From positions 1,474,209-1,538,208 of the forward strand of contig NZ_BMJH01000001.1 of assembly GCF_014643175.1 (NCBI RefSeq): a stretch of 64,000 bases of DNA, written 5' to 3'. The position numbers and the translations under genes were made by a program. Under the pieces are notes generated by a model. That model was not told the origin of the DNA. It did no database searches and saw only the letters and a program-made list of their open reading frames with translations. Source of the stretch: Hoyosella rhizosphaerae. GTDB lineage: Bacteria; Actinomycetota; Actinomycetes; Mycobacteriales; Mycobacteriaceae. Below, in pieces: positions 7,647 through 34,389 of the stretch (position 1 is the first letter of the stretch; each line of letters opens with the position of its first letter).

Positions 7647-7663
7647 GGCGCTACTGTGGAGAG

Positions 7664-8053
7664 GTGAATTCTCCACGGGCCGTTACTCTTGCTGTCGTTA
7701 TTGATGTCATCGCTGTAGTCGCATTCGCCATCGCGGGACGAATGCACCACAACGAAGCAGCGACCGTGTTTGGCGTCGCTGAAACCGCTTGGCCGTTCCT
7801 TATCGGGCTTGCGGCCGGTTGGATTACCGTGCTGAAGGCTCTGCAAGTGAGCAATGTTTTTGCCATCGTCCCTGCTGGCATCGCCGTGTGGGCGTGGACC
7901 ATGATCGGCGGAGTCGTGATCCGATTCCTCACTGAGGCCGGAACCGCGTGGGCCTTCATTCTTACGGCAACCCTCATCACCGGCGTACTTCTCCTTGGGT
8001 GGCGACTCGTTGCGCTGCTTATTTTGCGCCTACGCACGCCGCGCAGCGTCTAG
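7664..8053 (+). CDS. DUF3054-like small membrane protein
   Basis: About 130 aa with 4 TM helices ('VTLAVVIDVIAVVAFAIAGRMHHNE...'). GTG at 7664 is preceded by GGAGAG; the ORF track's longer frame (7577) overlaps the cyclase gene end. Confidence 0.45.
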   Translation: MNSPRAVTLAVVIDVIAVVAFAIAGRMHHNEAATVFGVAETAWPFLIGLAAGWITVLKALQVSNVFAIVPAGIAVWAWTMIGGVVIRFLTEAGTAWAFILTATLITGVLLLGWRLVALLILRLRTPRSV

Positions 8054-8069
8054 TACCTGCGTCAAGGCC

Positions 8070-10010: not shown

Positions 10011-10085
10011 AAAGCCACAAACACCCCTATCCTTGCAGACGTGGCTACTCCAGATGATGATCGCACCCCAACCAGTGCAGACAAG

Positions 10086-12799: not shown

Positions 12800-12802
12800 C
12801 TC

Positions 12803-13561
12803 ATGAGAGTCCTCATCGAACCCGACGAAGCTGCTGTGGCTCGCACCGCAGCGAACGCCGTCGCACCGCTGGTGCGGCACGCCACCTGCAACCTCGGTGT
12901 CGCAACAGGTTCGTCGCCTGTACCCACGTACCGCGAACTTGCCCGACGCTGCGCCAGCGGCGAGCTGAACTTCTCCGGCGTTCATGTTTTTCTCCTCGAT
13001 GAATACGCCGGACTTCCGCAACAACACCCGCAGTCCTATTTCTCGACAATCCGACGAGATTTCACCACCGCCGTTGGGATCCCCGACGACCACATCCACG
13101 GCCCAGACGGATACGCTGAAAATGTGTTTGAAGAGGCCGCCCAGTACGACCGGCACCTCACTGAAGTCGGTGGAATTGATGTCCAAATTCTCGGCATCGG
13201 CAGGAATGGACACATCGGGTTCAATGAACCCATGTCATCGCTGGCGAGCCGAACTCACGTCGCGGTGCTCACAAACCAAACTAGGCAAGACAACAGTCGC
13301 TTTTTCGCCGCAATCGACGATGTTCCTCGCCGAGCAATAACCCAAGGCTTGGCCACCATTAGCGAGGCTCGCTCGATCGTGCTCATCGCGACAGGACCTG
13401 CTAAATCATCGGCCCTAGCCGCAGCAATAGAAGGACCCCTGAGTGCGCGCTGCCCGGCATCGGTGCTGCAATTGCACCCCAACGTCACTATCATTGCCGA
13501 CGAAGAAGCCGCACAGGACCTCGAATTCGCCGACTACTACCGGCAGCGATCGGCCCACTAG
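12803..13561 (+). CDS. nagB: Glucosamine-6-phosphate deaminase
   Basis: 'LGVATGSSPVPTY...FLLDEY...GIGRNGHIGFNEP' matches the NagB family; 252 aa. Confidence 0.85.
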   Translation: MRVLIEPDEAAVARTAANAVAPLVRHATCNLGVATGSSPVPTYRELARRCASGELNFSGVHVFLLDEYAGLPQQHPQSYFSTIRRDFTTAVGIPDDHIHGPDGYAENVFEEAAQYDRHLTEVGGIDVQILGIGRNGHIGFNEPMSSLASRTHVAVLTNQTRQDNSRFFAAIDDVPRRAITQGLATISEARSIVLIATGPAKSSALAAAIEGPLSARCPASVLQLHPNVTIIADEEAAQDLEFADYYRQRSAH

Positions 13562-13639
13562 GGGAACCGTTATGTCTCGGCTGAGCCGCGCACGCGACCG
13601 TATGCGCACAGCGCTTCAGCAACACCACGGCACCCGAGC

Positions 13640-14275
13640 TCAATCGCGTGGGACAGTCCCCACTCGAACTTGAATATGCCCGCCCCGCAGGCTGACTGAA
13701 TCCACGTTCGTGCAGCGTTGCTCAAGCCTGGTCCACGGGTGCGCGTGAATATCTGCGCCTCCAGCCCGGCACGCAGCCCGTGCGAGCGGAGCCCACACCG
13801 CTGACCGCCCCGTCGGCACCTGCATGTCAACCACTGCAACGCGGGCACCTGGTTTACACGCAGCAACCATCGTGTCGAACGCTGCGCGCCAATCCGCCAT
13901 CAGGGACAGCGAATAAGTGGCAATTGCGGCGTCGAACTTTTCACCACCGAGGGCTTCACACAGTGCCTCTGCAGTTGTCCTTGTTGCGTCGGCTGTTGCA
14001 AGACTGACGTTGCTCCACTCATTGACGTGCGCTTTCCTGCTTGCCTGCGTGATCATGTCAGAACTGAGATCAACGCCCACGAGCCAACCATCTGGGCCAA
14101 TACGGTGCTGAATGTGCCCGAAGTTAAGCCCAGTGCCGCACCCCATGTCCAACACCTTCGCCCCGGCACGTAAGCGCATCAACTTCAGCGCCGCTTCCCG
14201 GCCCGCGCCGTACACCGGCCATTCAAACGAAATCGCGTCATAGAACTGCGCCGACGCGGTGTACTTTGCTGGCAT
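13640..14275 (-). CDS. Class I SAM-dependent methyltransferase
   Basis: Motif I 'VLDMGCGTG' and the downstream acidic 'VGVDLS' are typical of a Rossmann methyltransferase. Confidence 0.75.
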   Translation of the reverse strand: MPAKYTASAQFYDAISFEWPVYGAGREAALKLMRLRAGAKVLDMGCGTGLNFGHIQHRIGPDGWLVGVDLSSDMITQASRKAHVNEWSNVSLATADATRTTAEALCEALGGEKFDAAIATYSLSLMADWRAAFDTMVAACKPGARVAVVDMQVPTGRSAVWAPLARAACRAGGADIHAHPWTRLEQRCTNVDSVSLRGGHIQVRVGTVPRD

Positions 14276-14497
14276 AAAGTTCCTTAGTTTTCTGAGGAAG
14301 CAATCCGACGACTCACCGGGTTACTAGTCTGTGGACCGCACAGTGCCATAAGTCAACGGTGTCATAGCTCAACGACGGGAGGGAAACTCAAGCCGATGCT
14401 CAGTGACATCACTGTGGGCACGCCGCACCCTGCCACCAGAGTCGTCGATTCAGCGAATGCACAAAGTCGTCAACCAACTCGCACAAGGGGACATACA

Positions 14498-15925
14498 GTG
14501 ACGCAGCCACAACCGTGGGATTTGCTCGTAGTCGGTGGGGGTTCAGCAGGAATTGTTTCAGCCAAAACTGCCGTTAAGCTAGGGGCAAGTGTGCTGCTAG
14601 TGGAATCGCATCGCACAGGAGGAGACTGCCTGTGGACAGGATGCGTGCCGTCCAAATCGCTCCTCGCTGCCGCCCATCACGTCGCTCACGCTCGCCGTGG
14701 GGCCGAAGTCGGTGTTCACGTCGGTGACATCACCGTGGATTTTGCAGCAGTGATGGCGCACGTGCGCTCAGCAATCAGCACGATCGAACCGATCGACACT
14801 CCTGAGGCTCTCGAAGCTGATGGCATTACGGTTGTGTCAGGCCGAGCCGTCTTCACCAGCCCTCACACCGCTGACGTCAATGGTAAATCGGTGAGGTTCC
14901 GCCAGGCACTGATTGCCACCGGAGCCGCGCCCATACTTCCGCCCATTCCTGGCCTAAACAATGCGCTTACAAGCGAAACCGTGTGGGATCTTGATGAGCT
15001 TCCTGCTCGACTCCTTGTGATCGGAGGCGGCAGCATAGGGTGCGAACTGAGCCAAGCTTTCGCCCGTCTCGGCAGCGATGTCACACTCGTCGAAGCTGGA
15101 CCACGGGTGCTTCCGGCCGAATCACCGGCCGCCTCCCGCATCATCAACGATGTACTTGAACACGACGGCGTCACCATCCACACAGGCCAATCGGTATCCC
15201 ACATCGAGGGAACTCGAGCGGTTCTAAGCAACGACGACACAGTCGAGTTCGACCAAGTGCTCGTCGCTGTTGGCCGTGCCGCGCGAACAGATAAACTTGG
15301 CCTCGATGCCGCCGGTGTGCGCGTCAACGACCACAAACAGGTGATGATCGACCGTCATCTTCGCACCACAAACCCGCGTATCTGGGCCGCCGGGGACGTA
15401 ACCCCATTACCGCAATTCACTCACACCGCCGGAACCTTTGGCAGCCTCGCAGCGAGCAACGCAGTTTTGGGAATTCGCCGAAAAGTGAACACAGCGCTGA
15501 TTCCTCGCGTCACATTCACAGACCCTGAGGTTGCGTCAGTCGGCGAATCCACGCCCACAGTGAATTCGCGACTGCGCGAACACACGGTCACCCACGACCA
15601 CCTCGATCGAGCAGTCACCGAGAATTCCACGAGAGGATTCTCCAGCCTCGTATTCGACCGTAAGAGTCGCCTTGTCGGCGCAACAGTTGTCAGCCCACGC
15701 GCTGGGGAGACCATCGGTGAACTCACCCTCGCAATGAAACTTGGCCTTCGATCACGCGACCTTGCCGGCACGATTCACCCCTACCCCACCTACAACGACG
15801 GAGCATGGAATGCTGCCATCGCCGATACACGCGACCAGCTAGCGTCGCCTGCGGCGAAACGCACGTTCTCTGTGCTCACTGGCATACGGCGGAAATGGCT
15901 TAAAACAAAAAATAAGTCCGTATAA
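14498..15925 (+). CDS. FAD-dependent pyridine nucleotide-disulfide oxidoreductase (Lpd/mercuric-reductase-like, class I)
   Basis: 'DLLVVGGGSAGI' FAD motif, redox-active 'GGDCLWTGCVPSK', a second Rossmann 'VIGGGSIGCE', and a dimerisation domain. GTG at 14498 is preceded by AAGGGG; the ORF track starts at 14396. Confidence 0.8.
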   Translation: MTQPQPWDLLVVGGGSAGIVSAKTAVKLGASVLLVESHRTGGDCLWTGCVPSKSLLAAAHHVAHARRGAEVGVHVGDITVDFAAVMAHVRSAISTIEPIDTPEALEADGITVVSGRAVFTSPHTADVNGKSVRFRQALIATGAAPILPPIPGLNNALTSETVWDLDELPARLLVIGGGSIGCELSQAFARLGSDVTLVEAGPRVLPAESPAASRIINDVLEHDGVTIHTGQSVSHIEGTRAVLSNDDTVEFDQVLVAVGRAARTDKLGLDAAGVRVNDHKQVMIDRHLRTTNPRIWAAGDVTPLPQFTHTAGTFGSLAASNAVLGIRRKVNTALIPRVTFTDPEVASVGESTPTVNSRLREHTVTHDHLDRAVTENSTRGFSSLVFDRKSRLVGATVVSPRAGETIGELTLAMKLGLRSRDLAGTIHPYPTYNDGAWNAAIADTRDQLASPAAKRTFSVLTGIRRKWLKTKNKSV

Positions 15926-18614: not shown

Positions 18615-19238
18615 TCATCGCAGCGCGTGGTAGCCCGCGATGATGCGGTGCGCTGCACTCGTCCCGACAACAATCGCCCACACCACGGCGATGTACCACC
18701 CCAGCATGGGAAATAGCAGCCAGAGGCTGTGCACAACAATGGTTTCTGCGCCTTCAGCGAGTCCACCGAGGAATGACAATGATCGCCCGTCGTCGAGGGT
18801 GCGGTCGTAGCGTTCGGCGATCGAGGAGAACGCCAGAAACGCCGCCCCGTTGATGTAGTAGGCCAGCAAGACAAGCAGAAACGGCCACATCGGTGCGTCG
18901 TAGGCGATCCCCACACCGATTGCTACACCTACAACGGTGCTGCCGTAGACGACAAAATCCGCTGTGATGTCGTAAAACCCACCGGCACCGCTACTGTGCC
19001 CTGTTCGGGCGGCACGGCGGCGAGCAAGCGGACCGTCGAGTCCGTCCGCGATGCGCGACGCTAGCCACAGCAGCAGGGCGATCGTCCACCATTGCAGAGC
19101 TGCAGTGACAGCACTGCCTAGCCCCAGGGTCAGACCAACGGTGGTGATGCGGTCCGGGGTGATCCAACTGCGGTCCAAGTAGGCGGCAACCACAGCGAGC
19201 GGTTGTTCCAGCTTTTCCCGAATCTGTGCGTCAAACAC
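18615..19238 (-). CDS. CDP-alcohol phosphatidyltransferase family protein
   Basis: Signature 'DGLDGPLARRRAARTGHSSGAGGFYDITAD' (D-G-x2-A-R...G-x3-D-x3-D) within a polytopic membrane protein. GTG start at 19238 overlaps the DedA stop by 8 nt; the ORF track starts at 19346. Confidence 0.7.
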   Translation of the reverse strand: MFDAQIREKLEQPLAVVAAYLDRSWITPDRITTVGLTLGLGSAVTAALQWWTIALLLWLASRIADGLDGPLARRRAARTGHSSGAGGFYDITADFVVYGSTVVGVAIGVGIAYDAPMWPFLLVLLAYYINGAAFLAFSSIAERYDRTLDDGRSLSFLGGLAEGAETIVVHSLWLLFPMLGWYIAVVWAIVVGTSAAHRIIAGYHALR

Positions 19239-19965
19239 GGTCCGGTTCCTGTCGTGAGCTAAGTTCTGGGCGCTTGTTCTGCATTCTCCTCGCCGCATAC
19301 CCGCCACCCACAGTGAGCACAATGAACGCGGCAATCGCTGCCGCAAATGGCCACGACAATGGTTGGGTGCCGAAAGCGCCCAACGCGACGTAGCTCATCA
19401 CTCCTGGGATTATGCCGAGCGCTGTGCCGAGGAAATAATGCCGGAACCGGATTCCACTGATCCCGCCCGCGTAATTGACCAGCCAAAACGGGAAAAGCGG
19501 CACGAGGCGGACGATAAGAACGGAGGCAAACCCTCGACGGCGCAGAAAGAGCACTGCAGTGGCGGTTTTGGGGCCCCCGTAGCGGCTCAGCGCATCAGCG
19601 CCGAGGTGCCTGCCGAGAATGTAGGCCAGTGACGCCGAGAGCATTGCCGCAGCAAACACCGCAGCGATTCCCCCCGCGAACCCGAACAGCACTCCCGCCG
19701 CAATGCTGAGCACACTTGCCGGGGTTGGTGTGAGACTTAGCCCCGCGTAGGCGAGAACAAACACCAGGACCCCCACAAGTCCGGCGGCGGCCACCCGGGC
19801 ACGAATTTCGTCAGCACTTGGAATATCGACAAACCAAGCGATGACGGCACCGATAATGAGCAATGCCCCCAGGATGGCGAGCTTCACCAGAGGTGACAGC
19901 TTGCGCTCGTTGACATCTTCTTCAGGCACTAAGTTCTCCTCGTAGGGTGAAGCGCTACGGAGCAA
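19231..19965 (-). CDS. DedA/TVP38 family membrane protein
   Basis: A polytopic membrane protein with the DedA core (..RLVPLFPFWLVNYAGG..). TTG at 19965 or GTG at 19929 as start. Confidence 0.75.
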   Translation of the reverse strand: MLRSASPYEENLVPEEDVNERKLSPLVKLAILGALLIIGAVIAWFVDIPSADEIRARVAAAGLVGVLVFVLAYAGLSLTPTPASVLSIAAGVLFGFAGGIAAVFAAAMLSASLAYILGRHLGADALSRYGGPKTATAVLFLRRRGFASVLIVRLVPLFPFWLVNYAGGISGIRFRHYFLGTALGIIPGVMSYVALGAFGTQPLSWPFAAAIAAFIVLTVGGGYAARRMQNKRPELSSRQEPDRV

Positions 19966-25316: not shown

Positions 25317-25970
25317 TCAATGGTGGCGGGTTACATACCGAACTCCACCCGCCACCAACACCGCCAACACAGCAACACCCGTCACCACAAAAATCGCCAC
25401 ACCAGGGTTGTTGCGCGCCACCCCACCCGCAACCGCACCAACCGTCACGTAACTACCCACCCAACCCGTACTGCCCGCGCCCCACCACACAAATAACTTA
25501 CGAAACCGCACACCCATCGCACCCGCAGTAAACGGCGTAATGGCAAACAACACCGGCACAAACACCGCCAACATCATCGTCGGGCCACCAGCACTGCCTC
25601 GCAGATACCGCTCAGCCCTGGCCCACCGTGCTTCCCCGACCCAACGGCCCACCGCCGTCCCCTTGATGCGCCACCCCACCGTGTGCCCCAACCAGAACGA
25701 CAACGAGGCGCCAACTAAACACCCCACAACCCCAGCAACCACCACGATCGCCCACTCGCCGAGGCCGGAAACTGTCGTCCCAGCAAGGAGGACTGACACA
25801 TCTCCGGGCAAAAGCAACCCAATCAAAAATGTGGTTTGGACTATCAGCAAAGCGAATAACACAGCCCCAACAACCATTGGGTTTTGGCCAGCGAGCACAT
25901 CAAACATGTCCGCTATACGCTGGCCACCGAAACCCGTCATATCCCCAATGCTTACACGGATCTTCGCCAC
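25317..25970 (-). CDS. DedA family membrane protein
   Basis: 'LLPGDVSVLLAGTTVSG' matches the DedA signature, in a polytopic membrane protein. It lies immediately downstream of the giant ATPase gene on the same strand. Confidence 0.7.
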   Translation of the reverse strand: MAKIRVSIGDMTGFGGQRIADMFDVLAGQNPMVVGAVLFALLIVQTTFLIGLLLPGDVSVLLAGTTVSGLGEWAIVVVAGVVGCLVGASLSFWLGHTVGWRIKGTAVGRWVGEARWARAERYLRGSAGGPTMMLAVFVPVLFAITPFTAGAMGVRFRKLFVWWGAGSTGWVGSYVTVGAVAGGVARNNPGVAIFVVTGVAVLAVLVAGGVRYVTRHH

Positions 25971-26012: not shown

Positions 26013-29000
26013 CTATTCCGCAGAGTTTGCTCGCAATGCCGCTTCGATTCCGCCTACGCGATCGGCAAGCAAACCAACGGCCCCGACCGCGCGCGCCATC
26101 GGGTCGTCTTCGGCACCACCCAACGCTTGAGCACGCAGATAGCCCGCCTTCACGTCCGCCCACCGCTGCTGTTGTTGGTCCGTCAGCCGACCTCGCAGTT
26201 CGCCCAGCTTGAGCAGGTTTGCTTCGGCTCCGGCGGTGAGTGTTTGGGCTTCGCCCAAATAGTGGTCGTCGATGATCGCTTCGAGCTCTTCTTGATTCAG
26301 CACTGGCGAAATGCGTTCGGCTAGCTTCGCCATGTTGCGGTAGGAACCTTGCAGCTGGAATGGCGGTTCGGTGCGGTTGGCTTCCGCTGTCGCAGCCGAG
26401 GCAATGTATGTCTGGTTGACGGCCAGCAACGTCTTTTGGACGTGGATCATTTTTTGGAGCACGGCCAGGATTTCGTCGAGTTCAGTTGCGGAGTACGGGT
26501 GAGCCAGCTGGTCTGGCTGCACGGTGGTGTCGCCCTGCGCAAGCCTGATGAGCAACCCTAGGTCGCCACGTTCACGGGTAGAAAGTGGAGTGAGTACGGG
26601 GTTTGATGTGAGGGCGTTTTCTAGGTAGCTAAGGGCGAAGAGTTCTTCTTTGCCAGAGAGGACGTCGCCGAGGTTCCAGACGTCGGCGCGGTTCGCGAGC
26701 ATGTCGGGGATGCGGAAGCGTTTACCCTGCTCGGTGTAGGGGTTACCTGCCATGCATACCGCGAATCGCTTGCCCCGCATGTCATAGGTGCGGGTTCGAC
26801 CGTTCCATACACCTTCCATTCGCCGCTGAGCGTCACAGAGGGAGATGAACTTTTGCAGCAGTTCTGGGTTGGTGTGTTGAATGTCGTCGAGGTAGAGCAA
26901 TACGTTGTTGCCCATTTCGAGGGCAAAGTTGATTTTTTCGACCTCTTGGCGGGCAGTCGCGTTGGGTGCGTCGGCGGGGTCCACTGAGGTGACATAGTGC
27001 CCCAAGGCAGGGCCGTTGACCTTCACGAACACGACCCCGAGCCGATTCGCGACGTACTCCATCAGGGTTGTCTTGCCATATCCGGGCGGTGAAATGAGGA
27101 GAAGAAGCCCCGATTGATCGGTGCGGCGGCTGTCGCCTGTGGTGCCGAGCTGTTTGGCGAGGTTGTCACCGATAAGCGGCAAGTACGCTTCGTCGAGGAG
27201 CCTGTTTCGAACGAAGCCACTCATGACGGTGGGTTTGTATTCGTCGAGACGCAGTCTGCGACGTTCAGCGGCAACGAGCTCATTGCGTCGCTGCTGGAAG
27301 TGCCGGAACCCTGGGACGCGATGTGCACGGAAGCTTCGAGTGCGGGCGAGAAGTTCATCGAGCCTGAAGGTGAGTTTCCGGCTAGCTATACGCGGGTGTG
27401 CGCCGAGCATCGGTTCGGCGGTGCCGTCGAGTGAGGCCGCGGATTCGTATCTCTCAGTGCTGGTGCCGCATACTTCGATCGCGATGGCTTCAGCGAGGTC
27501 ATGTGCGTGTTCCGTGTCGCCTTCGGAGGCAAGGTAGGCGGACAGCCATGCACGGACGAGTTGGAATCGCGCTGTGGTGTCGTCACCGAGTGCGCGCAGG
27601 TCTGCGTCGTAGTCGTGGCGTGACTTCGCTGCGGATCCGCCTAATGCCCGGTGGAACCTGTCGACGAGTGTGCGAGCGCCGACGCTGGTGACGAATCGTG
27701 CGGTGCCGCTGGCTAATTCTTCGAGGAGGTACTCGCCGATGAGTTCGGTGTCCAACGCGCTGTAGGGCAATTCTGAGTCGGCGATGAACTGTTGAGCTGC
27801 GGTCGCAAGTTCTGCTGCGAGGGCGTCGATTTCTTCGGTTCGTCCAAACATGGCGCGAGCACGTGAGAGTGACGCCGCCCGCCTGGTCCACCGCGTTTGT
27901 GCATCGCTTTGGGCGCCGTATGTCCAGAATATTTGGGCGGCTGCTCGCGCTTCCGGCGGGTAACGCAGTAGCCCAGCCCCCGCGTAGAGACGCATGATTT
28001 CGGCGAGGATGCGGGTGGTGTCGTGATCGTGGACGCCTCGCTCGTATCCTTCGTCATATCGAGTTTCTGCGGCTCGCCGAACGACGTTGGATAGTTCATT
28101 GTCATCCACTGCAGTTTCGATGAGGGTGTCGACTGTGCCCGCCGACACTGCCTCGGCAAGCAGCAGTGATGCCAAGTATTCGCCGCGGTATACCTGCGGC
28201 GTTTCGGAGACCAGCAGCTGGTCCCAGTACGGCTTGGTGGCGGCGAACTCTGGGTCACCGACATCGGAGCGGTAGTCGGTTCCGGTGACGGCAAAGGACA
28301 TCGCGGTAGAACCATCGACGGTGTGTGGCACGAGCGTGAGGTCGATGGCTTGGGTGTTGACAGCGAACTGGTGTCGCCCAAGCTTGATGGTGTCCCCACC
28401 TGCGCCGTAAAGGTCCTGCCGATCGCGAAGTGCGCGGCCCGCTTCCTGCCGCGCAGCCTTAATGCGGCCGTCGATTTCCTCTGCTCGGACAGTGTCGCCG
28501 ATTCCTCGGAGCTCTCCCGCGAGGCTTCGAAGTTTGGCGACCATAGGGTCTGATGCGAAGTAGGTATTGACCTCGTCGACGGTGTCCATTCCCGACACTC
28601 GACGGGTGACGGACCCGAGGATTCGTTGGGCCGAGTCGACGAGGCGATCTGCGCGGCGTGATCGATCGTCAAGCAGGGCCTGTTTGCGGGAGGAGAAAGC
28701 CTCGTAGACGTCTTCGCGTTTGGTGCTGAGTTCGTCGAGAAAGTCGTCGAACTCACTGAAGCGCGATTCGAGGTTCTCCAGCTGGAGAAGGAGTCGTCCC
28801 AGCTGCTCGTCACAGGCGTCCGGGGTGTCCGCGACGGCAAGCGCCCCGGTGATTGCTTGTCCGAGTAGGCCAAACTCCGCGGCGAATTCCGCGCGCCCTT
28901 CCCTGGTGAGGAGTTCTTTCCTGCGAGACTCAACGGTGGCGCGGGCACGGTTTACACCGGCAATGACTTCGCTGATGCGCTCAAGAATGTTTGTTCGTAC

Positions 29001-31004
29001 AACGGCATCGCCGATATCGAGTGACGACACAATCTGCGTGACGACACTGAGCCCGTCGGACTGCGCGGCAAGGCGTTCGGTGACTGGTTTCGCTTCCGCG
29101 ACCGACGAGATTGTGTCCGCTTCGTCTATTAGTTCGTCGATGTCTCGGTGAAAGCTGTCGAACGCGTCCTCGCTGCTAAAGAACTCAACCGCGCGGCGTC
29201 CGGAATCGTCCAACGCTTCTTGTAGCTGCTCATCGAGGGTGTCCAATTTGGTGGTATTGACGAATCGGAGATCTCGCAGCGTTACGACGTGGCCTTGCTG
29301 CTTCCGAAGGTCAGCGAGGAGCGTCACCCACCCGTCGGCGGTGCGGGGCGCGCTCCCCCGGCTCATCCTGATGAGTGAGGCAATTTCCTGTTCCGACTTC
29401 TCCACTTGCTGCGCCGCTTGCGCAGTGAGAGCGGATACTTTTTCGAATTCGTCGATGACTCGCTCAGCTGTTGCCCGCAACGCCGAGAGTGGTTCGCCAA
29501 GGTTCCCAAGTTCGGGTTCAGACACCCAATGGTGATTGTCCGCAGTGCGGGCACACGCGGAAATCATGGCCTCAAAAACTGCCGTAGCAGGAGCCATTTC
29601 GTCCACCATGCGGGTGAGTGAAAGACAGTCCGAAATTCCGCGAACAAGTTCAGCGTTGCCGATGCGTTCAAGCGGTCCGGTGCCAACTGGTTGAGCTGCT
29701 GCGTACTCGTCGGACTGGAACGGGGTGTTCCACACCTGCATGGGGTGCACCCTGGTGGGTTCATCCGACACTGCTCGGAAAATCACCAATGTGCCGTCGT
29801 TAAAGAGTGAGTAGCCGTGGCATGGCAGCGGCGTCGCTACCTCTTTGCGAATGACGTTGTACGGCAATAGAAGGGTTCGACCTTCCTTGCGTGCGTGGAA
29901 GACATAAACAACATCTTCCCCGTTGCTCGACCTGATGACGCGTTCGTATTCGAGATCGGCTGTTTCGGTGTCAAAAGTACGAGCAACACCGGTATCGAGG
30001 TAGTACCCGCCCGGGAAGATGATTCCGTGATCTTCGGGGAGCCGACGACATGCCTGCCCAATGCCATCGAGGCGTGCAATGTCATCTGTTCGCGTATTGA
30101 AAACCAGGTAGCGCCATGTTTTTTCGTTGTATGGCTTAATCTTCAGCAGTATCAGCGGGCCGACGGTGGCATAGTGCACATCGGCATCAGCGAGACTCTG
30201 CAAGGGCTCATCGACTGGCTCGCGATATATCCCCTCACCAGATTCGGTGTTGTCTTCAATTTTGATGGTGAGATACCCACCAAGAGTTTCGACGAAGACT
30301 TTGTCCTTGATCGAGATGTGTGGGTGTCGACCGAGTACGTGGTTATCACGTGTGGTTTCGATCCATTCAAAATCATGCTGGGCTGGGAACTGGTGATCCC
30401 GTTCACCGCGATTGTCGTGGTACTTCAAAGTGCCATCGCTGGCAATGTTCCAGCGCAGAACCCTGATGTCTTCGGTACGCGCCCCGGTCTGGAAAACAGC
30501 GAGAAGCTTTCCCTCCACTCGCCGCAATTGCATCAGCCGCGTTTCCCGGTAGTACCGGTAAAGCTCAGAGAAGTGTCGAATAAACGAAGGATCGTCTAGC
30601 AGCCCCGGCGCTTCGTTAGTCGCATCGCTGAAGCTAAAGGTGTCGCCGTCGCGTTCAAAACGGTGAAGCGAGAAAACGTCGCTGATGGTGGTTTCAGGTT
30701 TGAGGCCAATAAAAACGTTGTAGCCAAAAAGCATCACCCCACCGTCGGCAGCACCTTTTGCTGGTAAAGCGACGATGTCACGGGGGATGCAGTTGTTTTC
30801 GGTGCGGATACGTTCGGCACCGACAAGTGAGAAGTCACTGCCACCGAAGACCTCGATCCGGCGCGTGTTGAGCGCCTGAGCGCGGCGTGACAACTCTGCT
30901 GCGTGCTCTGCCAGCCGCCCCCGGAGGACCTCGTACGTGCCACCATCGAGATTCGCGCTGCTCTCGTTGCTGCTGTCCTCGGAGTTGCTGTGTGCCGAAG
31001 TCAT
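26013..31004 (-). CDS. Giant (1663-aa) protein with C-terminal MoxR/AAA_5-like AAA+ ATPase domain, long helical middle region and beta-rich N-terminal region; function unknown
   Basis: ATG at 31004 overlaps the flotillin stop (ATGA). Walker A 'LLLISPPGYGKTTLMEY', Walker B 'NVLLYLDDIQH', and a sensor/arginine region 'FAVCMAGNPYTEQGKRFRIPDMLANRADVWNL' sit near residues ~1330-1480. Residues ~480-1250 are predicted helical and E/R/A/L-rich. The N-terminal ~450 aa are beta-rich. Confidence 0.85.
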   Translation of the reverse strand: MTSAHSNSEDSSNESSANLDGGTYEVLRGRLAEHAAELSRRAQALNTRRIEVFGGSDFSLVGAERIRTENNCIPRDIVALPAKGAADGGVMLFGYNVFIGLKPETTISDVFSLHRFERDGDTFSFSDATNEAPGLLDDPSFIRHFSELYRYYRETRLMQLRRVEGKLLAVFQTGARTEDIRVLRWNIASDGTLKYHDNRGERDHQFPAQHDFEWIETTRDNHVLGRHPHISIKDKVFVETLGGYLTIKIEDNTESGEGIYREPVDEPLQSLADADVHYATVGPLILLKIKPYNEKTWRYLVFNTRTDDIARLDGIGQACRRLPEDHGIIFPGGYYLDTGVARTFDTETADLEYERVIRSSNGEDVVYVFHARKEGRTLLLPYNVIRKEVATPLPCHGYSLFNDGTLVIFRAVSDEPTRVHPMQVWNTPFQSDEYAAAQPVGTGPLERIGNAELVRGISDCLSLTRMVDEMAPATAVFEAMISACARTADNHHWVSEPELGNLGEPLSALRATAERVIDEFEKVSALTAQAAQQVEKSEQEIASLIRMSRGSAPRTADGWVTLLADLRKQQGHVVTLRDLRFVNTTKLDTLDEQLQEALDDSGRRAVEFFSSEDAFDSFHRDIDELIDEADTISSVAEAKPVTERLAAQSDGLSVVTQIVSSLDIGDAVVRTNILERISEVIAGVNRARATVESRRKELLTREGRAEFAAEFGLLGQAITGALAVADTPDACDEQLGRLLLQLENLESRFSEFDDFLDELSTKREDVYEAFSSRKQALLDDRSRRADRLVDSAQRILGSVTRRVSGMDTVDEVNTYFASDPMVAKLRSLAGELRGIGDTVRAEEIDGRIKAARQEAGRALRDRQDLYGAGGDTIKLGRHQFAVNTQAIDLTLVPHTVDGSTAMSFAVTGTDYRSDVGDPEFAATKPYWDQLLVSETPQVYRGEYLASLLLAEAVSAGTVDTLIETAVDDNELSNVVRRAAETRYDEGYERGVHDHDTTRILAEIMRLYAGAGLLRYPPEARAAAQIFWTYGAQSDAQTRWTRRAASLSRARAMFGRTEEIDALAAELATAAQQFIADSELPYSALDTELIGEYLLEELASGTARFVTSVGARTLVDRFHRALGGSAAKSRHDYDADLRALGDDTTARFQLVRAWLSAYLASEGDTEHAHDLAEAIAIEVCGTSTERYESAASLDGTAEPMLGAHPRIASRKLTFRLDELLARTRSFRAHRVPGFRHFQQRRNELVAAERRRLRLDEYKPTVMSGFVRNRLLDEAYLPLIGDNLAKQLGTTGDSRRTDQSGLLLLISPPGYGKTTLMEYVANRLGVVFVKVNGPALGHYVTSVDPADAPNATARQEVEKINFALEMGNNVLLYLDDIQHTNPELLQKFISLCDAQRRMEGVWNGRTRTYDMRGKRFAVCMAGNPYTEQGKRFRIPDMLANRADVWNLGDVLSGKEELFALSYLENALTSNPVLTPLSTRERGDLGLLIRLAQGDTTVQPDQLAHPYSATELDEILAVLQKMIHVQKTLLAVNQTYIASAATAEANRTEPPFQLQGSYRNMAKLAERISPVLNQEELEAIIDDHYLGEAQTLTAGAEANLLKLGELRGRLTDQQQQRWADVKAGYLRAQALGGAEDDPMARAVGAVGLLADRVGGIEAALRANSAE

Positions 31005-33031
31005 GGCTTCTTAGTCGATAGCGGTGTGTCTGCCACCCCAAGCTTCCGGGCGCCCGCGAGTAGTTCTTCGAACTTTGCTTTTTCCGGCCCGCCCGACTTA
31101 ATAAGCTTGGCGAGTAGCGCCGATACAGTGAGGTTCTTGATGTCCTCGGTACCGGCTGCCGAGATTGCTTGCGCCATGTCTTCCGAGAAGCTTTGTGACC
31201 CGTCGAGCCAGTCGTGGCCCAGTCGTTGCGCCACTTCAGAGTTGTTGACGAAACCGTCGACGCTCTTGCCCATAGCGATCGAGCCCATCAGACGGTCGAA
31301 GAAGACGCTTTCACCACCAACAATGCTGATGTTCGCTTCTTTCAGCCCTGCGACCAGCACTGCAGCCTGGTGCTCTGCAACTTGGCGCTGAACATCGATG
31401 CTCGCGAGTTGGATGTCCTTCTCCATCTCCAGCCGAAGACGGTATTCCTCGTGCTCACGGGTGGCAGCATCAAGCTTGGCCATAGCATCGGCCTTCTCCG
31501 TAAGACCTTCAGCTTCGGCTTTGAGCTTTTCGCGGACTGCATCCGCTGAGGCGAGGGCTTTCTCCCGGTCGACCTGCGCTTCCGCACGGCCCACTTTCTC
31601 AATGGCCTCGGCGTTTCGTTCGCGAACCTGGACATCAGCAAGGCCAGAAGCCGCGGTTTCAGCTTGCGTGCCTTCAGCGAGGCGGATCTTTGCGCGGGCT
31701 TCAAGTTCAGCGGATTGCTGCGCTGCCTCTGCGAGGGTGAGACGTTCCTTCGCTTTGTGCTTCGCCGCAACTTCTGCGGCTTCAGCCGACTTGATGTCCT
31801 TGACTAGATTTTGCTGCGCTTCAGCTTCAGCCCGAATGATGATGGCCTGGCGGTCACGTTCAGCCGCTTCCACCGCACGCAGTCGATTGATACTTTCTTC
31901 CTGCTCAGCAACAGTTTTGTCCACTGCAATGCGTTCGCGCATTGCTTCGGAAACCCCACGACGTTCTGTCTCGACCTCTCGGTCTTTCGCGATCCGTTGC
32001 AGTTCCGTCTCACGTTCACGGTTAATTACCTCAAGCAGACGATCCTTCTCAATCCGCTCGGACTCAACGGCAATAACACGTTCGCGGTTCTTCTCCGCAA
32101 CCGCGATTTCGCGGAACTGGTTCTCGGCTTGAACGCCAACCTGCTCGTCGGTGCGGATACGTGCCGTTTCGGACTTGAGGCGCTCTTCGGCTTGAACTCG
32201 CTTCGTCTCAGCTTCTTCGCGCGAAATAACGGTGTTGATTTCACGTTGCTGCTTCGCTTCAGCATCAGCTTGCTGACGCTCTAGTTCGAGGATCGCCTCG
32301 CGGGCTTCTACGTCCTGGCGCTTGATTTCTTTTTCTTCGTTGCGCCGAAAATCGTTCGTGCGAACATTTTCGATGGCCGTAAGCTCAGTGATCTTTCGGA
32401 TGCCCTGCGCGTCAAGAATATTCTTGGCATCGAGCTGCGACATCGGGGTCTGCTCGAGGTAATCGATGGCAGCGTCTTCGAGGCTGTAACCGTTGAGGTC
32501 AGTGCCGATAACCCGGATGATTTGGTCACGGAACTCGTCACGTTTGGTGTAGAGATCTTCAAAATCGAGATGCTTACCAACAGTTTTCAGAGCTTCGGAG
32601 AACTTTGCGTTGAACAGGGTCTGCATCGTATTTTGATCACTCGCACGTTCGGTGCCGATCGCTTGCGCAACCTTAATGACGTCCTCAGCGGTCTTGTTCA
32701 CCCGCACGAAGAAGGTAATACGAATATCCGCACGGATATTGTCGCGACAGATCAGCCCGTCATGCCCAACACGATCAATCTCCATCGTTTTGACGGAGAT
32801 GTCCATCGTTTCGGCCTTGTGGAGGATAGGCAGCACAACAGCACCGGTGAAGGTGACATCGACTGTGCGCAGCTTCGAAATGATGAGCGCGCTGCCCTGG
32901 GGCACCTTTCGGTACATCCGCGTCACCATGAACACCACGGCAAGAACGATGAGTAGGATCGCGGCAAAAACCACGCCCACACTGGTGGCTATCACGTCCA
33001 CAACGGCCCCTTCGTTAAATTTGTCCCGCAA
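31001..33031 (-). CDS. Flotillin / SPFH (band 7) domain protein with extended charged coiled coil (YqiK/FloT-like)
   Basis: N-terminal TM helix, an SPFH core ('...YRKVPQGSALIIS...DISVKTMEIDRVGHDGLICRDNIRADIRITFFVRVN...'), then a ~350-aa E/R/A/K/Q-rich coiled coil and a C-terminal flotillin tail. The start is either TTG 33031 or GTG 33001 (the latter has an AAGGGG RBS). Confidence 0.85.
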   Translation of the reverse strand: MRDKFNEGAVVDVIATSVGVVFAAILLIVLAVVFMVTRMYRKVPQGSALIISKLRTVDVTFTGAVVLPILHKAETMDISVKTMEIDRVGHDGLICRDNIRADIRITFFVRVNKTAEDVIKVAQAIGTERASDQNTMQTLFNAKFSEALKTVGKHLDFEDLYTKRDEFRDQIIRVIGTDLNGYSLEDAAIDYLEQTPMSQLDAKNILDAQGIRKITELTAIENVRTNDFRRNEEKEIKRQDVEAREAILELERQQADAEAKQQREINTVISREEAETKRVQAEERLKSETARIRTDEQVGVQAENQFREIAVAEKNRERVIAVESERIEKDRLLEVINRERETELQRIAKDREVETERRGVSEAMRERIAVDKTVAEQEESINRLRAVEAAERDRQAIIIRAEAEAQQNLVKDIKSAEAAEVAAKHKAKERLTLAEAAQQSAELEARAKIRLAEGTQAETAASGLADVQVRERNAEAIEKVGRAEAQVDREKALASADAVREKLKAEAEGLTEKADAMAKLDAATREHEEYRLRLEMEKDIQLASIDVQRQVAEHQAAVLVAGLKEANISIVGGESVFFDRLMGSIAMGKSVDGFVNNSEVAQRLGHDWLDGSQSFSEDMAQAISAAGTEDIKNLTVSALLAKLIKSGGPEKAKFEELLAGARKLGVADTPLSTKKP

Positions 33032-33046
33032 AAAGTTGGCACTTGT

Positions 33047-33706
33047 TTAAGTAAAGCGCCCCAACGCTGGGTCTCCCATAGCCGGATCCACTGGGCAGAC
33101 CCAAAAGAACTCCCTGTCAAGATCGTAGTCGTACACCAGCGCTGACGCACCGGACCGCAAAAGTCCATGTACTGCATGCTCACGCGACTGCCGGACCTGA
33201 ATGAGCGCGGATGAACCGTCAGGTGAGGTGATCTCCGCTTGCCCAAAATCTGGTGTGACCGTACTGGTGCGAATTATGCAGATTCGACCAACAAAGTCAG
33301 CTCTCGACGGTGGTGGGGTGTGGTGGAAAACGTGCCGCAGCGGTGCGGCGAGCATCCTGGTGATCAACACTCCGGCACCAATGGCAGCGATCAGCACGAC
33401 GAACAATAACGCCGCTAGGCCCCCGCCCGATATGCCGACCGAATCCAGAAAAACGTTTCCAACGATGCTGGTCAGCCACGCAAACACGACGAACAACGAC
33501 AGCGCGACCGTCACCGGAACACCTTCGAGGCCTATGGCCTTCAACGCTCCCCCGCCGTCACCCCCGTCATCCACGGGGTCGCCGTCAAGGAGGTCGAGTG
33601 CGGCCCCGCCGACGAGGACGAGGACCCAATAAACGACGACGACAATCAGGGCAAAAGTAAAAATCACTGCCGGGAAACGCAACGTAGCGTCAAGAAAGTC
33701 ACCCAT
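33047..33706 (-). CDS. NfeD/YqiJ-like membrane protein (OB-fold C-terminus), flotillin partner
   Basis: N-terminal multi-TM region with Gly-rich loops and a C-terminal soluble beta-rich domain ('ICIIRTSTVTPDFGQAEITSPDGSSALIQVRQ') typical of the NfeD short form. Positioned directly upstream of the flotillin as in yqiJ-yqiK / nfeD-floT operons. ATG at 33706; the ORF track has TTG at 33739. Confidence 0.65.
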   Translation of the reverse strand: MGDFLDATLRFPAVIFTFALIVVVVYWVLVLVGGAALDLLDGDPVDDGGDGGGALKAIGLEGVPVTVALSLFVVFAWLTSIVGNVFLDSVGISGGGLAALLFVVLIAAIGAGVLITRMLAAPLRHVFHHTPPPSRADFVGRICIIRTSTVTPDFGQAEITSPDGSSALIQVRQSREHAVHGLLRSGASALVYDYDLDREFFWVCPVDPAMGDPALGRFT

Positions 33707-33835
33707 GCCGCGTGCCCACCCCCTGATTCCCAACACCAAATTGAGCCGTCGCCGTATAGCTGCTCAGCAAAACTGTTCCACAACTACTGTGGTCCCACAA
33801 CACGTACGCGGAAGTCCGTACTGCCTCGAACTGGA

Positions 33836-34357
33836 CTAGTCGTCCCCGTAGTCGCGGACCGGCTTCATAATGTTTGTCGTATTGGTGACAACGCGAATCC
33901 ACAAGTAGGCGAGCGCAAGCGTGGCGCCAAATGCTATGTACAGCGCAACAGAAGGCGTGCGCGCTTGAGGATGGGCGGTGAGTTCAGCCCACAACGCGAA
34001 CATTCCAAACAGCACCCCAAGGCCTTGGGAAAACATCGTCGCCCAGGCTGCGGCCCACCGGTGCGTCACCAACGCAATCAGCGACCCACCGATCCCACCG
34101 ACCACTGCGAGGACAATAAAGATTCGGAGGAAGAAGCTACCCGGAGCGTCAGTGGTCACCTCGGCGGTGAGGATGGTCCACGCTCGCGCCGATTCAGCGA
34201 GCGGAAAGAGCATTGCTACGGCAAGTATCACGACGAGAATCGCGATGGTGACGGCTCTTCCTCCTGTGTTGAACTCACGCTGTACGCGGTGTTCGATCTC
34301 GTCGAAATCGTGTCGGTACGCATCGAACTCATCCGGCATCCCTTGATCGTCCTCCAT
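33836..34357 (-). CDS. Hypothetical small membrane protein (possible first gene of the NfeD-flotillin operon)
   Basis: 4 TM helices after an acidic N-terminus ('MEDDQGMPDEFDAYRHDFDEIEHRV'). Start trimmed to the internal ATG because the ORF track start (34387) abuts the divergent peptidase start. Confidence 0.4.
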   Translation of the reverse strand: MEDDQGMPDEFDAYRHDFDEIEHRVQREFNTGGRAVTIAILVVILAVAMLFPLAESARAWTILTAEVTTDAPGSFFLRIFIVLAVVGGIGGSLIALVTHRWAAAWATMFSQGLGVLFGMFALWAELTAHPQARTPSVALYIAFGATLALAYLWIRVVTNTTNIMKPVRDYGDD

Positions 34358-34389
34358 CAGAACGACACCGGCAACGGGACCCCACACAA

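What the first reader, a model, noticed from the sequence alone, without database searches (positions are those of the whole stretch)
26013..31004. Domain architecture of the giant protein: beta-rich N-terminal module, ~750-aa helical/coiled region, C-terminal MoxR/AAA_5-type ATPase
The only confidently recognisable catalytic element is a single AAA+ module near the C-terminus. Its Walker A is 'SPPGYGKTT', its Walker B is 'LLYLDD', and 'MAGNPYTEQGKRFRIPDMLANRADV' resembles the sensor/arginine-finger segment of MoxR/McrB/dynein-type AAA_5 domains. About 1300 upstream residues have no obvious enzymatic motif and are dominated by E/R/A/L-rich helices. Single-AAA giant proteins with long helical stalks are rare in bacteria.
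Basis: inference. Interest (0 to 1): 0.65.

Follow-up and report, generated by a model that had tools for sequence, protein, structure and literature searches.

The report
Flotillin-linked giant MoxR-like AAA+ ATPase
The 1663-residue protein is a real, highly conserved member of an uncharacterised bacterial family mislabelled "DNA repair ATPase": a beta-propeller, long helices and one MoxR-like ATPase motor, almost always encoded directly after a membrane flotillin gene, so it most likely acts on flotillin membrane scaffolds and not on DNA.

Summary
ORF 26013-31004 (-) encodes 1663 aa with the stated Walker A, Walker B and sensor motifs.

- **Family:** Pfam places it in DUF3686 (E 1e-218) plus DUF7902. 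An identical protein is annotated "DNA repair ATPase" in Hoyosella rhizosphaerae, and more than 6000 homologue clusters exist.
- **Architecture (AlphaFold2):** N-terminal helix, beta-propeller (59-426), long helices (432-865), small beta domain (872-914), second helical domain (940-1182), one AAA+ module (1291-1565), C-terminal helices.
the gene overlaps by 4 nt the stop of a YqiK-type flotillin gene, which follows a YqiJ-like membrane protein gene. This triad is present in 76 of 76 informative loci and in 5 of 6 other distant loci examined. In Teredinibacter and a Chitinophagaceae MAG it is preceded by CesT-like and PspA genes.
- **Prior work:** Ravi et al. 2024 described this operon computationally. 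I found no experimental work.

Best reading: an ATP-driven remodeller of flotillin assemblies. This is inferred, not shown. Nothing supports DNA repair.

The parts
26013..31004 (-). Whole gene: 1663-aa DUF3686-family ATPase, annotated 'DNA repair ATPase', with no predicted transmembrane segment
   Evidence: ORF. Pfam DUF3686, DUF7902, AAA and AAA_5. 100% identical to a Hoyosella rhizosphaerae protein. Kyte-Doolittle maximum 1.51, so no TM-like segment.
30846..30938 (-). N-terminal helix, aa 23-53. It follows a poorly conserved, low-confidence tail, aa 1-22.
   Evidence: AF2 secondary structure and pLDDT. Tail occupancy 0.71 and identity 0.18.
29727..30830 (-). Beta-propeller-like domain, aa 59-426. 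This is the core of Pfam DUF3686, which matches aa 37-492.
   Evidence: About 30 strands at pLDDT about 90. The best local Foldseek matches in the PDB are 6/7-bladed propellers (Ski8, EED, WDR91, thiocyanate dehydrogenase, PON1) at E 1e-4 to 1e-5. Pfam E 1.2e-218.
28410..29711 (-). Long-helix region, aa 432-865, including Pfam DUF7902 (aa 613-697, nt 28914-29168)
   Evidence: AF2 helices 503-549, 667-724 and 753-803. DUF7902 scores 99.2 bits. Heptad periodicity is seen in only some helices.
28263..28391 (-). Small beta domain, aa 872-914, interrupting the helical region
   Evidence: AF2 strands 872-875, 878-881, 889-896, 899-906 and 912-914. pLDDT dips to 52-60 around aa 861-890.
27459..28187 (-). 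Second helical domain, aa 940-1182. It has shorter helices and is the least conserved part.
   Evidence: AF2, pLDDT about 90. Mean column identity for the 917-1182 block is 0.22.
27135..27458 (-). Pre-AAA linker, aa 1183-1290 (strands plus three helices)
   Evidence: AF2 models.
26655..27134 (-). AAA+ alpha/beta core, aa 1291-1450. Walker A SPPGYGKTT 1305-1313 (nt 27066-27092). Walker B LLYLDDIQH 1369-1377 (nt 26874-26900). Pre-sensor-1 beta-hairpin 1395-1408 (nt 26781-26822). Sensor-1 N1421. Putative arginine finger R1439.
26310..26654 (-). Helical lid, aa 1451-1565, with the invariant QGSYRNM motif (1552-1558, nt 26331-26351). R1556 is the putative sensor-2 arginine.
26016..26309 (-). C-terminal helical extension, aa 1566-1663
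   Evidence: AF2 helices, model residues 372-463.
31001..33031 (-). Upstream partner gene: 676-aa YqiK-type flotillin (N-terminal membrane anchor, SPFH domain, E/A/R-rich helices). Its TGA stop overlaps the ATPase ATG (ATGA).
   Evidence: Pfam Band_7. 26% identity to E. coli YqiK, E 4e-34. The overlap is read directly from the sequence. Present directly upstream in 76 of 76 informative loci.
33047..33706 (-). First gene of the unit: YqiJ-like membrane protein. It has three hydrophobic segments and a C-terminal soluble domain. The likely start is MGDFLD, giving 219 aa.
   Evidence: Hydropathy. Family alignment A6. An HMM built from A6 finds E. coli YqiJ at 20.2 bits, E 2.6e-6. hhalign gives E 0.0022 over 125 collinear columns. 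The Flammeovirga orthologue carries a weak Pfam YqiJ_N hit. The public gene call is 219 aa.

Best explanation
The gene encodes a soluble, roughly 180 kDa member of the DUF3686 family.

**What is shown.** The protein has a beta-propeller, an array of long helices, a small beta domain and a second helical domain. These are fused to one complete MoxR-like AAA+ motor. The putative catalytic residues are Walker A K1311, Walker B D1373/D1374, sensor-1 N1421, arginine finger R1439 and sensor-2 R1556. The gene is the last of a conserved three-gene operon, yqiJ-like, then yqiK-type flotillin, then the ATPase, and its start is translationally coupled to the flotillin stop.

**What is inferred.**
1. Like other MoxR ATPases, the motor forms a hexameric ring.
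2. The cis-fused propeller and helical arms take the place of the separate VWA adaptor that MoxR proteins normally use. They dock the ring onto the cytoplasmic face of the flotillin/YqiJ membrane assembly.
3. ATP hydrolysis then remodels that scaffold, by assembly, disassembly or turnover of the flotillin oligomer. This would be analogous to Vps4 acting on ESCRT-III, within an envelope-stress module that other phyla extend with PspA and a CesT-like chaperone.

The invariant 'DD' Walker B, in place of the usual 'DE', suggests slow or partner-gated hydrolysis. This too is an inference.
For: **Family and architecture**
- Pfam DUF3686 and DUF7902.
- AF2 models at pLDDT 84.7 and 81.7.
- Propeller matches in the PDB.

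**MoxR-like motor**
- Foldseek ranks NorQ first, with target-normalised TM-score 0.55-0.62.
- The AAA_5 profile is matched almost end to end, positions 2-128 of 139.
- A pre-sensor-1 hairpin is present in the model.
- The putative catalytic residues are invariant down to 30% identity, and the AAA core is the most conserved block at 0.68.

**Coupling to flotillin**
- The flotillin stop and ATPase start overlap by 4 nt, ATGA.
- Flotillin lies directly upstream on the same strand in 76 of 76 loci with enough upstream DNA. These include Deltaproteobacteria, Myxococcus and a Clostridia MAG.
- The gap is 150 nt or less in 65 of 72 loci, and the 4-nt overlap recurs in 17.
- The same triad occurs in Teredinibacter, Vibrio, Flammeovirga, a Chitinophagaceae MAG and a metagenome contig.
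- No other neighbour is conserved.
- Identity to the window proteins correlates between flotillin and ATPase, r = 0.65 over 74 loci.

**Membrane topology**
- The partners are membrane proteins and the ATPase has no TM segment.

**Link to PspA**
- PspA plus a CesT-like protein precede the triad in Teredinibacter and a Chitinophagaceae MAG.
- This matches the operon described by Ravi et al. 2024, PMC11237479.
Against: - No experiment or interaction prediction links the ATPase physically to flotillin. The mechanism rests on synteny and analogy.
- One divergent member, from Aureibacter tunicatorum (Bacteroidota), has no flotillin within 7 kb.
- E. coli and many other bacteria run YqiJ/YqiK without this ATPase, so flotillin does not in general need it.
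- S. aureus FloA-NfeD is reported to work without ATP (PMC11222466).
- Sequence HMMs do not separate MoxR/AAA_5 from classic AAA, and Foldseek margins are small.
- No beta-hairpin helix-2 insert is seen in the model.
- No VWA partner is present.
- Hexamer formation is assumed.
Confidence: 0.5

Rival explanations
1. The motor acts on clients and not on the scaffold. Flotillin and YqiJ hold unfolded or damaged membrane proteins as an ATP-independent holdase, and the AAA+ ring extracts, unfolds or releases them. The propeller would serve as the substrate or adaptor site.
For: The synteny evidence is the same as for the best explanation. S. aureus FloA-NfeD is reported to clamp and stabilise unfolded proteins without ATP (PMC11222466), which leaves room for an ATP-dependent release partner. 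From established knowledge, MoxR relatives CbbQ and NorQ remodel a client enzyme and not a scaffold; they are the top structural hits. In Teredinibacter a rhomboid protease and an M90 peptidase follow the ATPase gene.
Against: No protease or chaperone is conserved with the triad. No substrate-binding feature has been identified. This rival cannot be separated from scaffold remodelling with the present data.
Confidence: 0.25
2. It is a DNA repair ATPase, as the database name says.
For: Only the inherited label supports this: the Pfam DUF3686 description 'ATPase involved in DNA repair' and the NCBI name. There is a weak sub-threshold match to the RuvB P-loop region, 20.9 bits against a cut-off of 27. 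RuvB appears among the Foldseek hits.
Against: No DNA-binding, nuclease or helicase domain is found by Pfam, NCBIfam or PADLOC. The only conserved neighbours are two membrane proteins. No repair gene is conserved nearby. The RuvB match covers only the generic P-loop. The literature searches for the family identifiers and for the label together with 'flotillin' returned nothing.
Confidence: 0.03
3. The triad is a conflict or anti-phage defence module that senses or repairs membrane damage caused by phage or toxins.
For: In Vibrio alginolyticus the triad sits beside RNA ligase, AAA_33/HD and R2K ATP-grasp genes, and near HipA and TelA. That looks like a variable island. An integrase and a transposase lie a few kb from the Teredinibacter locus. 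From general knowledge, large multidomain ATPases are common in defence systems.
Against: PADLOC gives no hit above noise, the best being IetA at E 0.0017 on the P-loop only. The protein is 67-80% identical across distant actinomycete genera and is found in ordinary chromosomal surroundings. That pattern fits vertical inheritance of a housekeeping-type function. Gene order is fixed, and no effector such as a nuclease, a toxin or a second TM effector is present.
Confidence: 0.07
4. Classification rival: the motor belongs to the classic AAA clade (Cdc48, Vps4, FtsH-like) and not to the MoxR/AAA_5 group.
For: PF00004 scores slightly higher than AAA_5 for the whole protein, 30.0 against 28.7 bits. 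Its best E-value among family members is also better, 1.9e-9 against 2.4e-8. All significant PDB sequence hits are classic AAA proteins (Rix7, NVL, p97, VAT) plus midasin. The Walker A region 'PPGxGKT' followed by 'V.GP.L' after beta2 looks like classic AAA.
Confidence: 0.1

Closest known systems
[quoted passage not shown] 2024, mSystems, PMC11237479); Pfam DUF3686 (PF12458) + DUF7902 (PF25472); NCBI name 'DNA repair ATPase'
   Same: The domain order is the same: beta-propeller, helical region, AAA. The gene order is the same: YqiJ/YuaF-like TM protein, then band-7/flotillin, then the ATPase. The Teredinibacter and Chitinophagaceae orthologues sit in the full CesT-like plus PspA version of the operon. 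The window carries the 'abbreviated' three-gene form that the paper also describes.
   Different: Nothing material differs; this is that family. New here are the MoxR-like fold assignment, the pre-sensor-1 hairpin, the extra small beta domain and second helical domain, the invariant DD Walker B, the frequency of 4-nt translational coupling, and one exception without flotillin (Aureibacter).
MoxR-class AAA+ ATPases CbbQ (Rubisco activase CbbQO) and NorQ (NorQD, nitric oxide reductase maturation)
   Different: Sequence identity is only 11-14%. There is no separate VWA/MIDAS adaptor gene. Instead about 1290 residues are fused in cis. Walker B is DD and not DE. No beta-hairpin helix-2 insert is seen in the model. 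The partners are membrane scaffold proteins and not a metalloenzyme.
FtsH with the HflK/HflC SPFH cage; Vps4 with ESCRT-III/PspA-type polymers
   Same: In both cases an AAA+ motor is functionally tied to an oligomeric membrane scaffold, which is the working analogy for the mechanism. PspA is encoded in the extended operon in some lineages.
   Different: The resemblance is analogy only. There is no protease domain, no MIT domain and no TM anchor. The AAA+ clade differs by fold. No interaction has been shown.
E. coli YqiJ-YqiK and Bacillus/Staphylococcus NfeD-flotillin pairs
   Same: The two upstream genes are homologues. Flotillin against YqiK gives E 4e-34. The YqiJ-like profile finds E. coli YqiJ at E 2.6e-6.
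   Different: Those model-organism pairs lack the third gene. In E. coli, yqiK is followed by the sibD/ibsD locus. The flotillin here is longer, 676 aa against 553 aa.

Membership tests
DUF3686 / 'DNA repair ATPase' family (PF12458 + PF25472 + C-terminal AAA) | PF12458 match above the gathering score | tested here: met
   726.5 bits against a cut-off of 25, covering aa 37-492 and profile positions 1-448 of 448.
DUF3686 / 'DNA repair ATPase' family (PF12458 + PF25472 + C-terminal AAA) | PF25472 (DUF7902) within the helical region | tested here: met
   99.2 bits against a cut-off of 26, aa 613-697.
DUF3686 / 'DNA repair ATPase' family (PF12458 + PF25472 + C-terminal AAA) | Full-length collinear alignment with family members and the family-invariant AAA motifs (SPPGYGKT, DDIQH, GNP, NR, QGSYR.M) | tested here: met
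   Members of 1600-1930 aa align across query residues 1-1200 down to 27% identity. The motifs are invariant in a 26-sequence alignment.
Flotillin-YqiJ-AAA+ operon of Ravi et al. 2024 | Gene order: YqiJ/YuaF-like TM protein, then band-7/flotillin, then beta-propeller + helical + AAA ATPase, all on one strand | tested here: met
   Window coordinates 33739..26013 on the minus strand. Present in 76 of 76 informative loci. The paper's text and its Table S3 entry.
Flotillin-YqiJ-AAA+ operon of Ravi et al. 2024 | CesT/Tir-like plus PspA dyad upstream (the full form of the operon) | tested here: not met
   No PspA or DUF2170 homologue is found in the window or in L001-L080. The dyad is present in Teredinibacter and a Chitinophagaceae MAG. 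The paper describes this dyad-less 'abbreviated' form as widespread, so membership of the abbreviated form stands.
MoxR / AAA_5 group of AAA+ ATPases | Pfam AAA_5 (PF07728) above the gathering score and better than other AAA models | tested here: inconclusive
   AAA_5 scores 28.7 bits (cut-off 22) and PF00004 scores 30.0 bits (cut-off 21.2). On the isolated domain the scores are 33.1 and 31.9. Both hit 26 of 26 members.
MoxR / AAA_5 group of AAA+ ATPases | Closest solved structures are MoxR-class proteins | tested here: met
MoxR / AAA_5 group of AAA+ ATPases | Pre-sensor-1 beta-hairpin between alpha3 and beta4 | tested here: met
   Model strands 196-201 and 204-209, equal to aa 1395-1400 and 1403-1408, followed by beta4 at 1414-1420.
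MoxR / AAA_5 group of AAA+ ATPases | Helix-2 insert (a beta-hairpin within alpha2) | tested here: inconclusive
   Between beta2 (1325-1330) and alpha2 (1349-1364) the model shows a 4-residue helix and an ordered loop with pLDDT above 90, and no strands. Model coordinates could not be inspected.
MoxR / AAA_5 group of AAA+ ATPases | Pre-sensor-2 insert that repositions the lid | not testable with these tools
   This needs a 3-D superposition, and only the DSSP strings and hit tables were available.
MoxR / AAA_5 group of AAA+ ATPases | Partner protein with a VWA/MIDAS domain encoded nearby (typical of the group, not universal) | tested here: not met
   No conserved neighbour exists other than flotillin and YqiJ-like. 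No VWA family appears in the gene tables of seven loci.
Classic AAA clade (PF00004: Cdc48, Vps4, FtsH) | Full-length PF00004 match and no pre-sensor-1 hairpin | tested here: not met
DNA repair proteins (the database label) | Any DNA-binding, nuclease or helicase domain, or conserved linkage to repair genes | tested here: not met
   Pfam, NCBIfam and PADLOC find none. The conserved neighbours are membrane proteins.
Known anti-phage defence systems (PADLOC-DB) | Match to a defence-system protein model | tested here: not met
   The best hit is IetA at E 0.0017, covering 29 residues of the P-loop only. Flotillin has no hit.

The most novel reading that the evidence does not exclude
The DUF3686 ATPase is a dedicated, energy-driven assembly and disassembly machine for bacterial flotillin scaffolds. 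It would be a MoxR-type hexamer whose fused propeller and helical arms grip the flotillin/YqiJ complex. After FtsH-HflKC, this would be a second and mechanistically different AAA+/SPFH machine, and a bacterial counterpart of Vps4 acting on ESCRT-III. It would also mean that thousands of database entries named 'DNA repair ATPase' are misnamed.
Probability: 0.35. Interest if true: 0.75.

Novelty: already known. Interest (0 to 1): 0.38.

Why it matters
What bacterial flotillins do, and how their assemblies are controlled, is still debated. A very conserved, catalytically intact AAA+ motor is translationally coupled to a flotillin gene in at least hundreds of species genomes. That gives a concrete experimental handle: Walker-motif mutants, localisation studies and pull-downs. 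It is available in tractable genera such as Streptomyces, Myxococcus and Vibrio.

There is also a practical annotation point. The propagated name 'DNA repair ATPase' has no support and points users to the wrong biology.

The finding itself, meaning the domain architecture, is already captured by Pfam and by one comparative-genomics paper. Its value lies in clarification, not discovery.

Tried and rejected
1. **DNA-repair role.** No supporting domain or neighbour was found.
2. **Defence system.** PADLOC returned nothing meaningful.
3. **Sequence-only assignment of the AAA clade.** phmmer and a 26-sequence profile against the PDB saw only the Walker-A/beta2 stretch. Pfam could not separate AAA from AAA_5.
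4. **Dynein-like reading.** The top two of the three best Foldseek hits for the N-terminal model were dynein heavy chains (E 2.5e-6 and 8e-6). However, RMSD was 48-68 Å and TM-score about 0.1 over more than 1200 columns. I rejected these as non-specific helical matches.
5. **Canonical coiled-coil stalk.** A heptad test was positive for only some helices and flat for the two longest.
6. **BLASTP of the 230-aa membrane protein against E. coli YqiJ.** It found nothing. Only profile methods recovered the relationship. Pfam and the PDB gave nothing for it.
7. **DedA, M13 peptidase and the 183-aa TM protein as system members.** They are not conserved in any of 80 loci.
8. **AFDB fold search.** The library was unavailable.
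9. **Literature.** Searches for 'DUF3686', 'PF12458', and 'DNA repair ATPase' with 'flotillin' returned no papers. 'flotillin' with 'MoxR' returned two papers whose titles and abstracts are unrelated to this family; they were not opened.
10. **tRNA and Rfam scans of the window.** Both were empty.
11. **Promoter and terminator scan.** The counts did not exceed those from shuffled sequence.
Full report

Yes. A single ORF runs from 31004 down to 26013 on the minus strand, 1663 codons with an ATG start. The three quoted motifs are at aa 1305-1313 (SPPGYGKTT), 1369-1374 (LLYLDD) and 1418-1442 (MAGNPYTEQGKRFRIPDMLANRADV).

The gene is not a chance ORF.
- Pfam DUF3686 matches aa 37-492 end to end at 726.5 bits (E 1.2e-218).
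- DUF7902 matches aa 613-697 at 99.2 bits.
- A 100% identical protein is on record as 'DNA repair ATPase [Hoyosella rhizosphaerae]'.
- More than 6000 homologue clusters were found. Members from other actinomycete genera are 67-80% identical over the full length.

**2. Anatomy**

Two AlphaFold2 models were built from 69-sequence alignments: aa 1-1200 (pLDDT 84.7, pTM 0.51) and aa 1200-1663 (pLDDT 81.7). They give the following layout.

| Region (aa) | Feature |
|---|---|
| 1-22 | Disordered, poorly conserved tail |
| 23-53 | Helix |
| 59-426 | Beta domain of about 30 strands |
| 432-865 | All-alpha region, with helices of 47, 58 and 51 residues |
| 872-914 | Five-stranded small beta domain |
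| 940-1182 | Second helical domain built from shorter helices |
| 1183-1290 | Linker |
| 1291-1450 | AAA+ alpha/beta core |
| 1451-1565 | Helical lid |
| 1566-1663 | Helical extension |

- The best local matches of the beta domain in the PDB are 6/7-bladed propellers (Ski8, EED, WDR91, thiocyanate dehydrogenase, PON1) at E 1e-4 to 1e-5.
- A heptad test supports coiled-coil periodicity in only some helices. It does not support it in the two longest. I therefore describe the middle as long-helix bundles and not as a proven coiled-coil stalk.
- No enzymatic family matches the first ~1290 residues.
- There is no TM-like segment.
- Full-length relatives of 1600-1930 aa align collinearly over residues 1-1200 down to 27% identity. 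The whole architecture is therefore conserved, not only the motor.
- Conservation is highest in the AAA core (mean column identity 0.68) and the lid (0.45). It is about 0.3 in the propeller and long helices, and 0.22 in the second helical domain.

**3. What kind of AAA+ is it?**

- For the whole protein, PF00004 scores 30.0 bits and AAA_5 scores 28.7 bits.
- For the isolated domain the scores are 31.9 and 33.1.
- Both families hit 26 of 26 diverse members.
- The difference lies in coverage. AAA_5 is matched over profile positions 2-128 of 139. PF00004 is matched only up to Walker B, positions 1-70 of 131.
- Sequence searches of the PDB, with the single sequence or with a 26-sequence profile, recover only the Walker-A/beta2 stretch. 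The hits there are classic AAA proteins (Rix7, NVL, p97) and midasin.

Fold comparison is clearer.
- Foldseek also puts NorQ first, with the highest target-normalised TM-scores (0.55-0.62), although its E-value margins over MCM and RuvB are small.
- The model has a beta-hairpin at 1395-1400 and 1403-1408, between alpha3 and beta4. This is the pre-sensor-1 hairpin, which the classic clade lacks.
- A hairpin-type helix-2 insert is not seen. That position holds an ordered, conserved loop.

The putative catalytic residues are invariant across the family: K1311, D1373/D1374, N1421, R1439 and R1556. The motor is therefore under selection as an active NTPase. Walker B is 'DD' and not 'DE'. From general knowledge, a DD Walker B also occurs in DnaA-type initiators, where ATP turnover is slow and regulated. 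I take this only as a hint of gated hydrolysis.

Verdict on class: a divergent MoxR-like member of the pre-sensor-1-hairpin AAA+ superclade, with a P-loop segment that looks like classic AAA.

**4.

The ATPase ATG overlaps the TGA of the upstream gene (ATGA).
- The upstream gene, 31001-33031 on the minus strand, encodes a 676-aa protein. It has one N-terminal hydrophobic anchor, a Band_7/SPFH domain and long E/A/R-rich helices. It is 26% identical to E. coli flotillin YqiK (E 4e-34).
- Upstream of that lies a gene (33047-33706) for a protein of about 219 aa with three hydrophobic segments and a soluble C-terminal domain.
- BLASTP against E. coli YqiJ finds nothing. An HMM built from 11 orthologues finds YqiJ at 20.2 bits (E 2.6e-6). 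hhalign gives a collinear 125-column match (E 0.0022). The Flammeovirga orthologue carries a weak Pfam YqiJ_N hit.

Results for the 80 loci kept:
- All 76 with enough upstream DNA have the flotillin gene directly upstream on the same strand.
- These 76 include Deltaproteobacteria, Myxococcus, a Clostridia MAG and an unclassified proteobacterium.
- The YqiJ-like gene was detected in 59.
- The distance from the flotillin stop to the nearest ATPase start is 150 nt or less in 65 of 72 loci, and the 4-nt overlap recurs in 17.
- No other neighbour is conserved. The DedA/VTT gene, the M13 peptidase and the 183-aa TM protein that flank the unit here are absent from all 80 loci.

More distant members behave as follows.

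| Organism or source | Context of the ATPase gene |
|---|---|
| Teredinibacter | DUF2170 (CesT-like), PspA, 229 aa, 654 aa, ATPase, rhomboid, M90 peptidase |
| Chitinophagaceae MAG | CesT_Tir, PspA, 232 aa, 676 aa, ATPase |
| Flammeovirga | Plain triad |
| Vibrio alginolyticus | Plain triad |
| Metagenome contig | Plain triad |
| Aureibacter tunicatorum (Bacteroidota) | No flotillin within 7 kb |

**5. What is already known**

Ravi et al. 2024 (mSystems, PMC11237479) describe this operon. [quoted passage not shown] In their account the unit is joined to CesT/Tir-PspA in some lineages, and 'abbreviated operons' without PspA are widespread. Their Table S3 lists 'Betapropeller+Coiled-coil+AAA-ATPase' after the flotillin gene in Dokdonia.

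The contexts in Teredinibacter and the Chitinophagaceae MAG confirm that the DUF3686 family is that ATPase. I found no experimental study. The label 'DNA repair ATPase' has no visible basis.

**6. Mechanism**

*Shown:* the architecture; an intact MoxR-like motor; a soluble protein; near-obligate operonic and translational coupling to a YqiK-type flotillin and a YqiJ-like protein; and occasional extension with PspA and a CesT-like protein.

*Inferred:* a hexameric ring whose cis-fused propeller and helical arms replace the VWA adaptor of canonical MoxR systems. The arms dock the ring onto the cytoplasmic face of the flotillin/YqiJ assembly. ATP turnover then remodels that scaffold. This is analogous to Vps4 with ESCRT-III and to the pairing of FtsH with the HflK/C cage.

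The main rival is that the motor works on client proteins held by flotillin. S. aureus FloA-NfeD has been reported to act as an ATP-independent holdase for unfolded proteins (PMC11222466), and an ATP-dependent release or unfolding partner would fit with that.

The present data cannot separate these two readings. Both place the protein in membrane-protein and membrane-scaffold homeostasis and not in DNA repair. A defence role is a minor rival. It is suggested only by the island-like Vibrio context, and it is opposed by the PADLOC result and by the strong conservation in ordinary chromosomal contexts.

**7. Verdict**

It is MoxR-like by fold, ambiguous by HMM, not rare, and tied to flotillin.
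- The feature is an already catalogued but experimentally untouched family.
- Interest is moderate. It gives a concrete handle on how flotillin assemblies are regulated and it corrects a misleading annotation, but it is not a new kind of system.

Noticed in passing
window 25317-25970 (-): A DedA/VTT-domain membrane protein gene starts 42 nt after the ATPase stop, on the same strand. It looks operonic here but is absent from all 80 related loci, so it is probably a local neighbour only.
   Followed up: partly
L085 (Aureibacter tunicatorum) 7001-11830: This is the most divergent full-length family member, about 27-30% identical. It has no flotillin or YqiJ-like gene within 7 kb; a PRiA4_ORF3-domain gene lies upstream. 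It is the only exception to the triad among the loci inspected.
   Followed up: partly
L086 (Vibrio alginolyticus) 1575-4232 and 12192-15304: The triad sits next to RNA ligase, AAA_33/HD and R2K ATP-grasp genes, and near HTH-HipA and TelA. This looks like a variable or conflict-type island, unlike the actinomycete contexts.
   Followed up: no
L081 (Teredinibacter) 13302-15256: A rhomboid protease gene starts 10 nt after the ATPase stop. A Peptidase_M90/SEC-C gene and a zinc-ribbon gene follow, which may be lineage-specific additions to the operon.
   Followed up: no
window 26874-26900 (-), aa 1369-1377: Walker B is 'LLYLDDIQH', with an invariant Asp-Asp in place of the usual Asp-Glu. From memory, the 'DDIQ' string resembles the Walker B of DnaA.
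   Followed up: no
window 57272-59224 (-): A single ORF fuses a xanthine/uracil permease domain to an OHCU decarboxylase domain. It lies in a purine-catabolism cluster with a xanthine-dehydrogenase-type protein (49289-51925) and an amidohydrolase (52671-54113).
   Followed up: no
window 4573-6102 and 6003-7646 (+): Two adjacent ORFs, overlapping as called, each encode a HAMP plus adenylate/guanylate cyclase protein. They appear to be tandem paralogues.
   Followed up: no
window 33836-34387 (-): A 183-aa predicted membrane protein with no Pfam match lies just upstream of the YqiJ-like gene on the same strand. It is not conserved in related loci.
   Followed up: partly
window about 18615-19929 (gene calls in L083, the same DNA): A second VTT/DedA-domain gene lies next to a CDP-alcohol phosphatidyltransferase gene about 6 kb from the first DedA gene. 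Their products are a membrane protein and a lipid-synthesis-type enzyme, and they sit near the flotillin unit.
   Followed up: no
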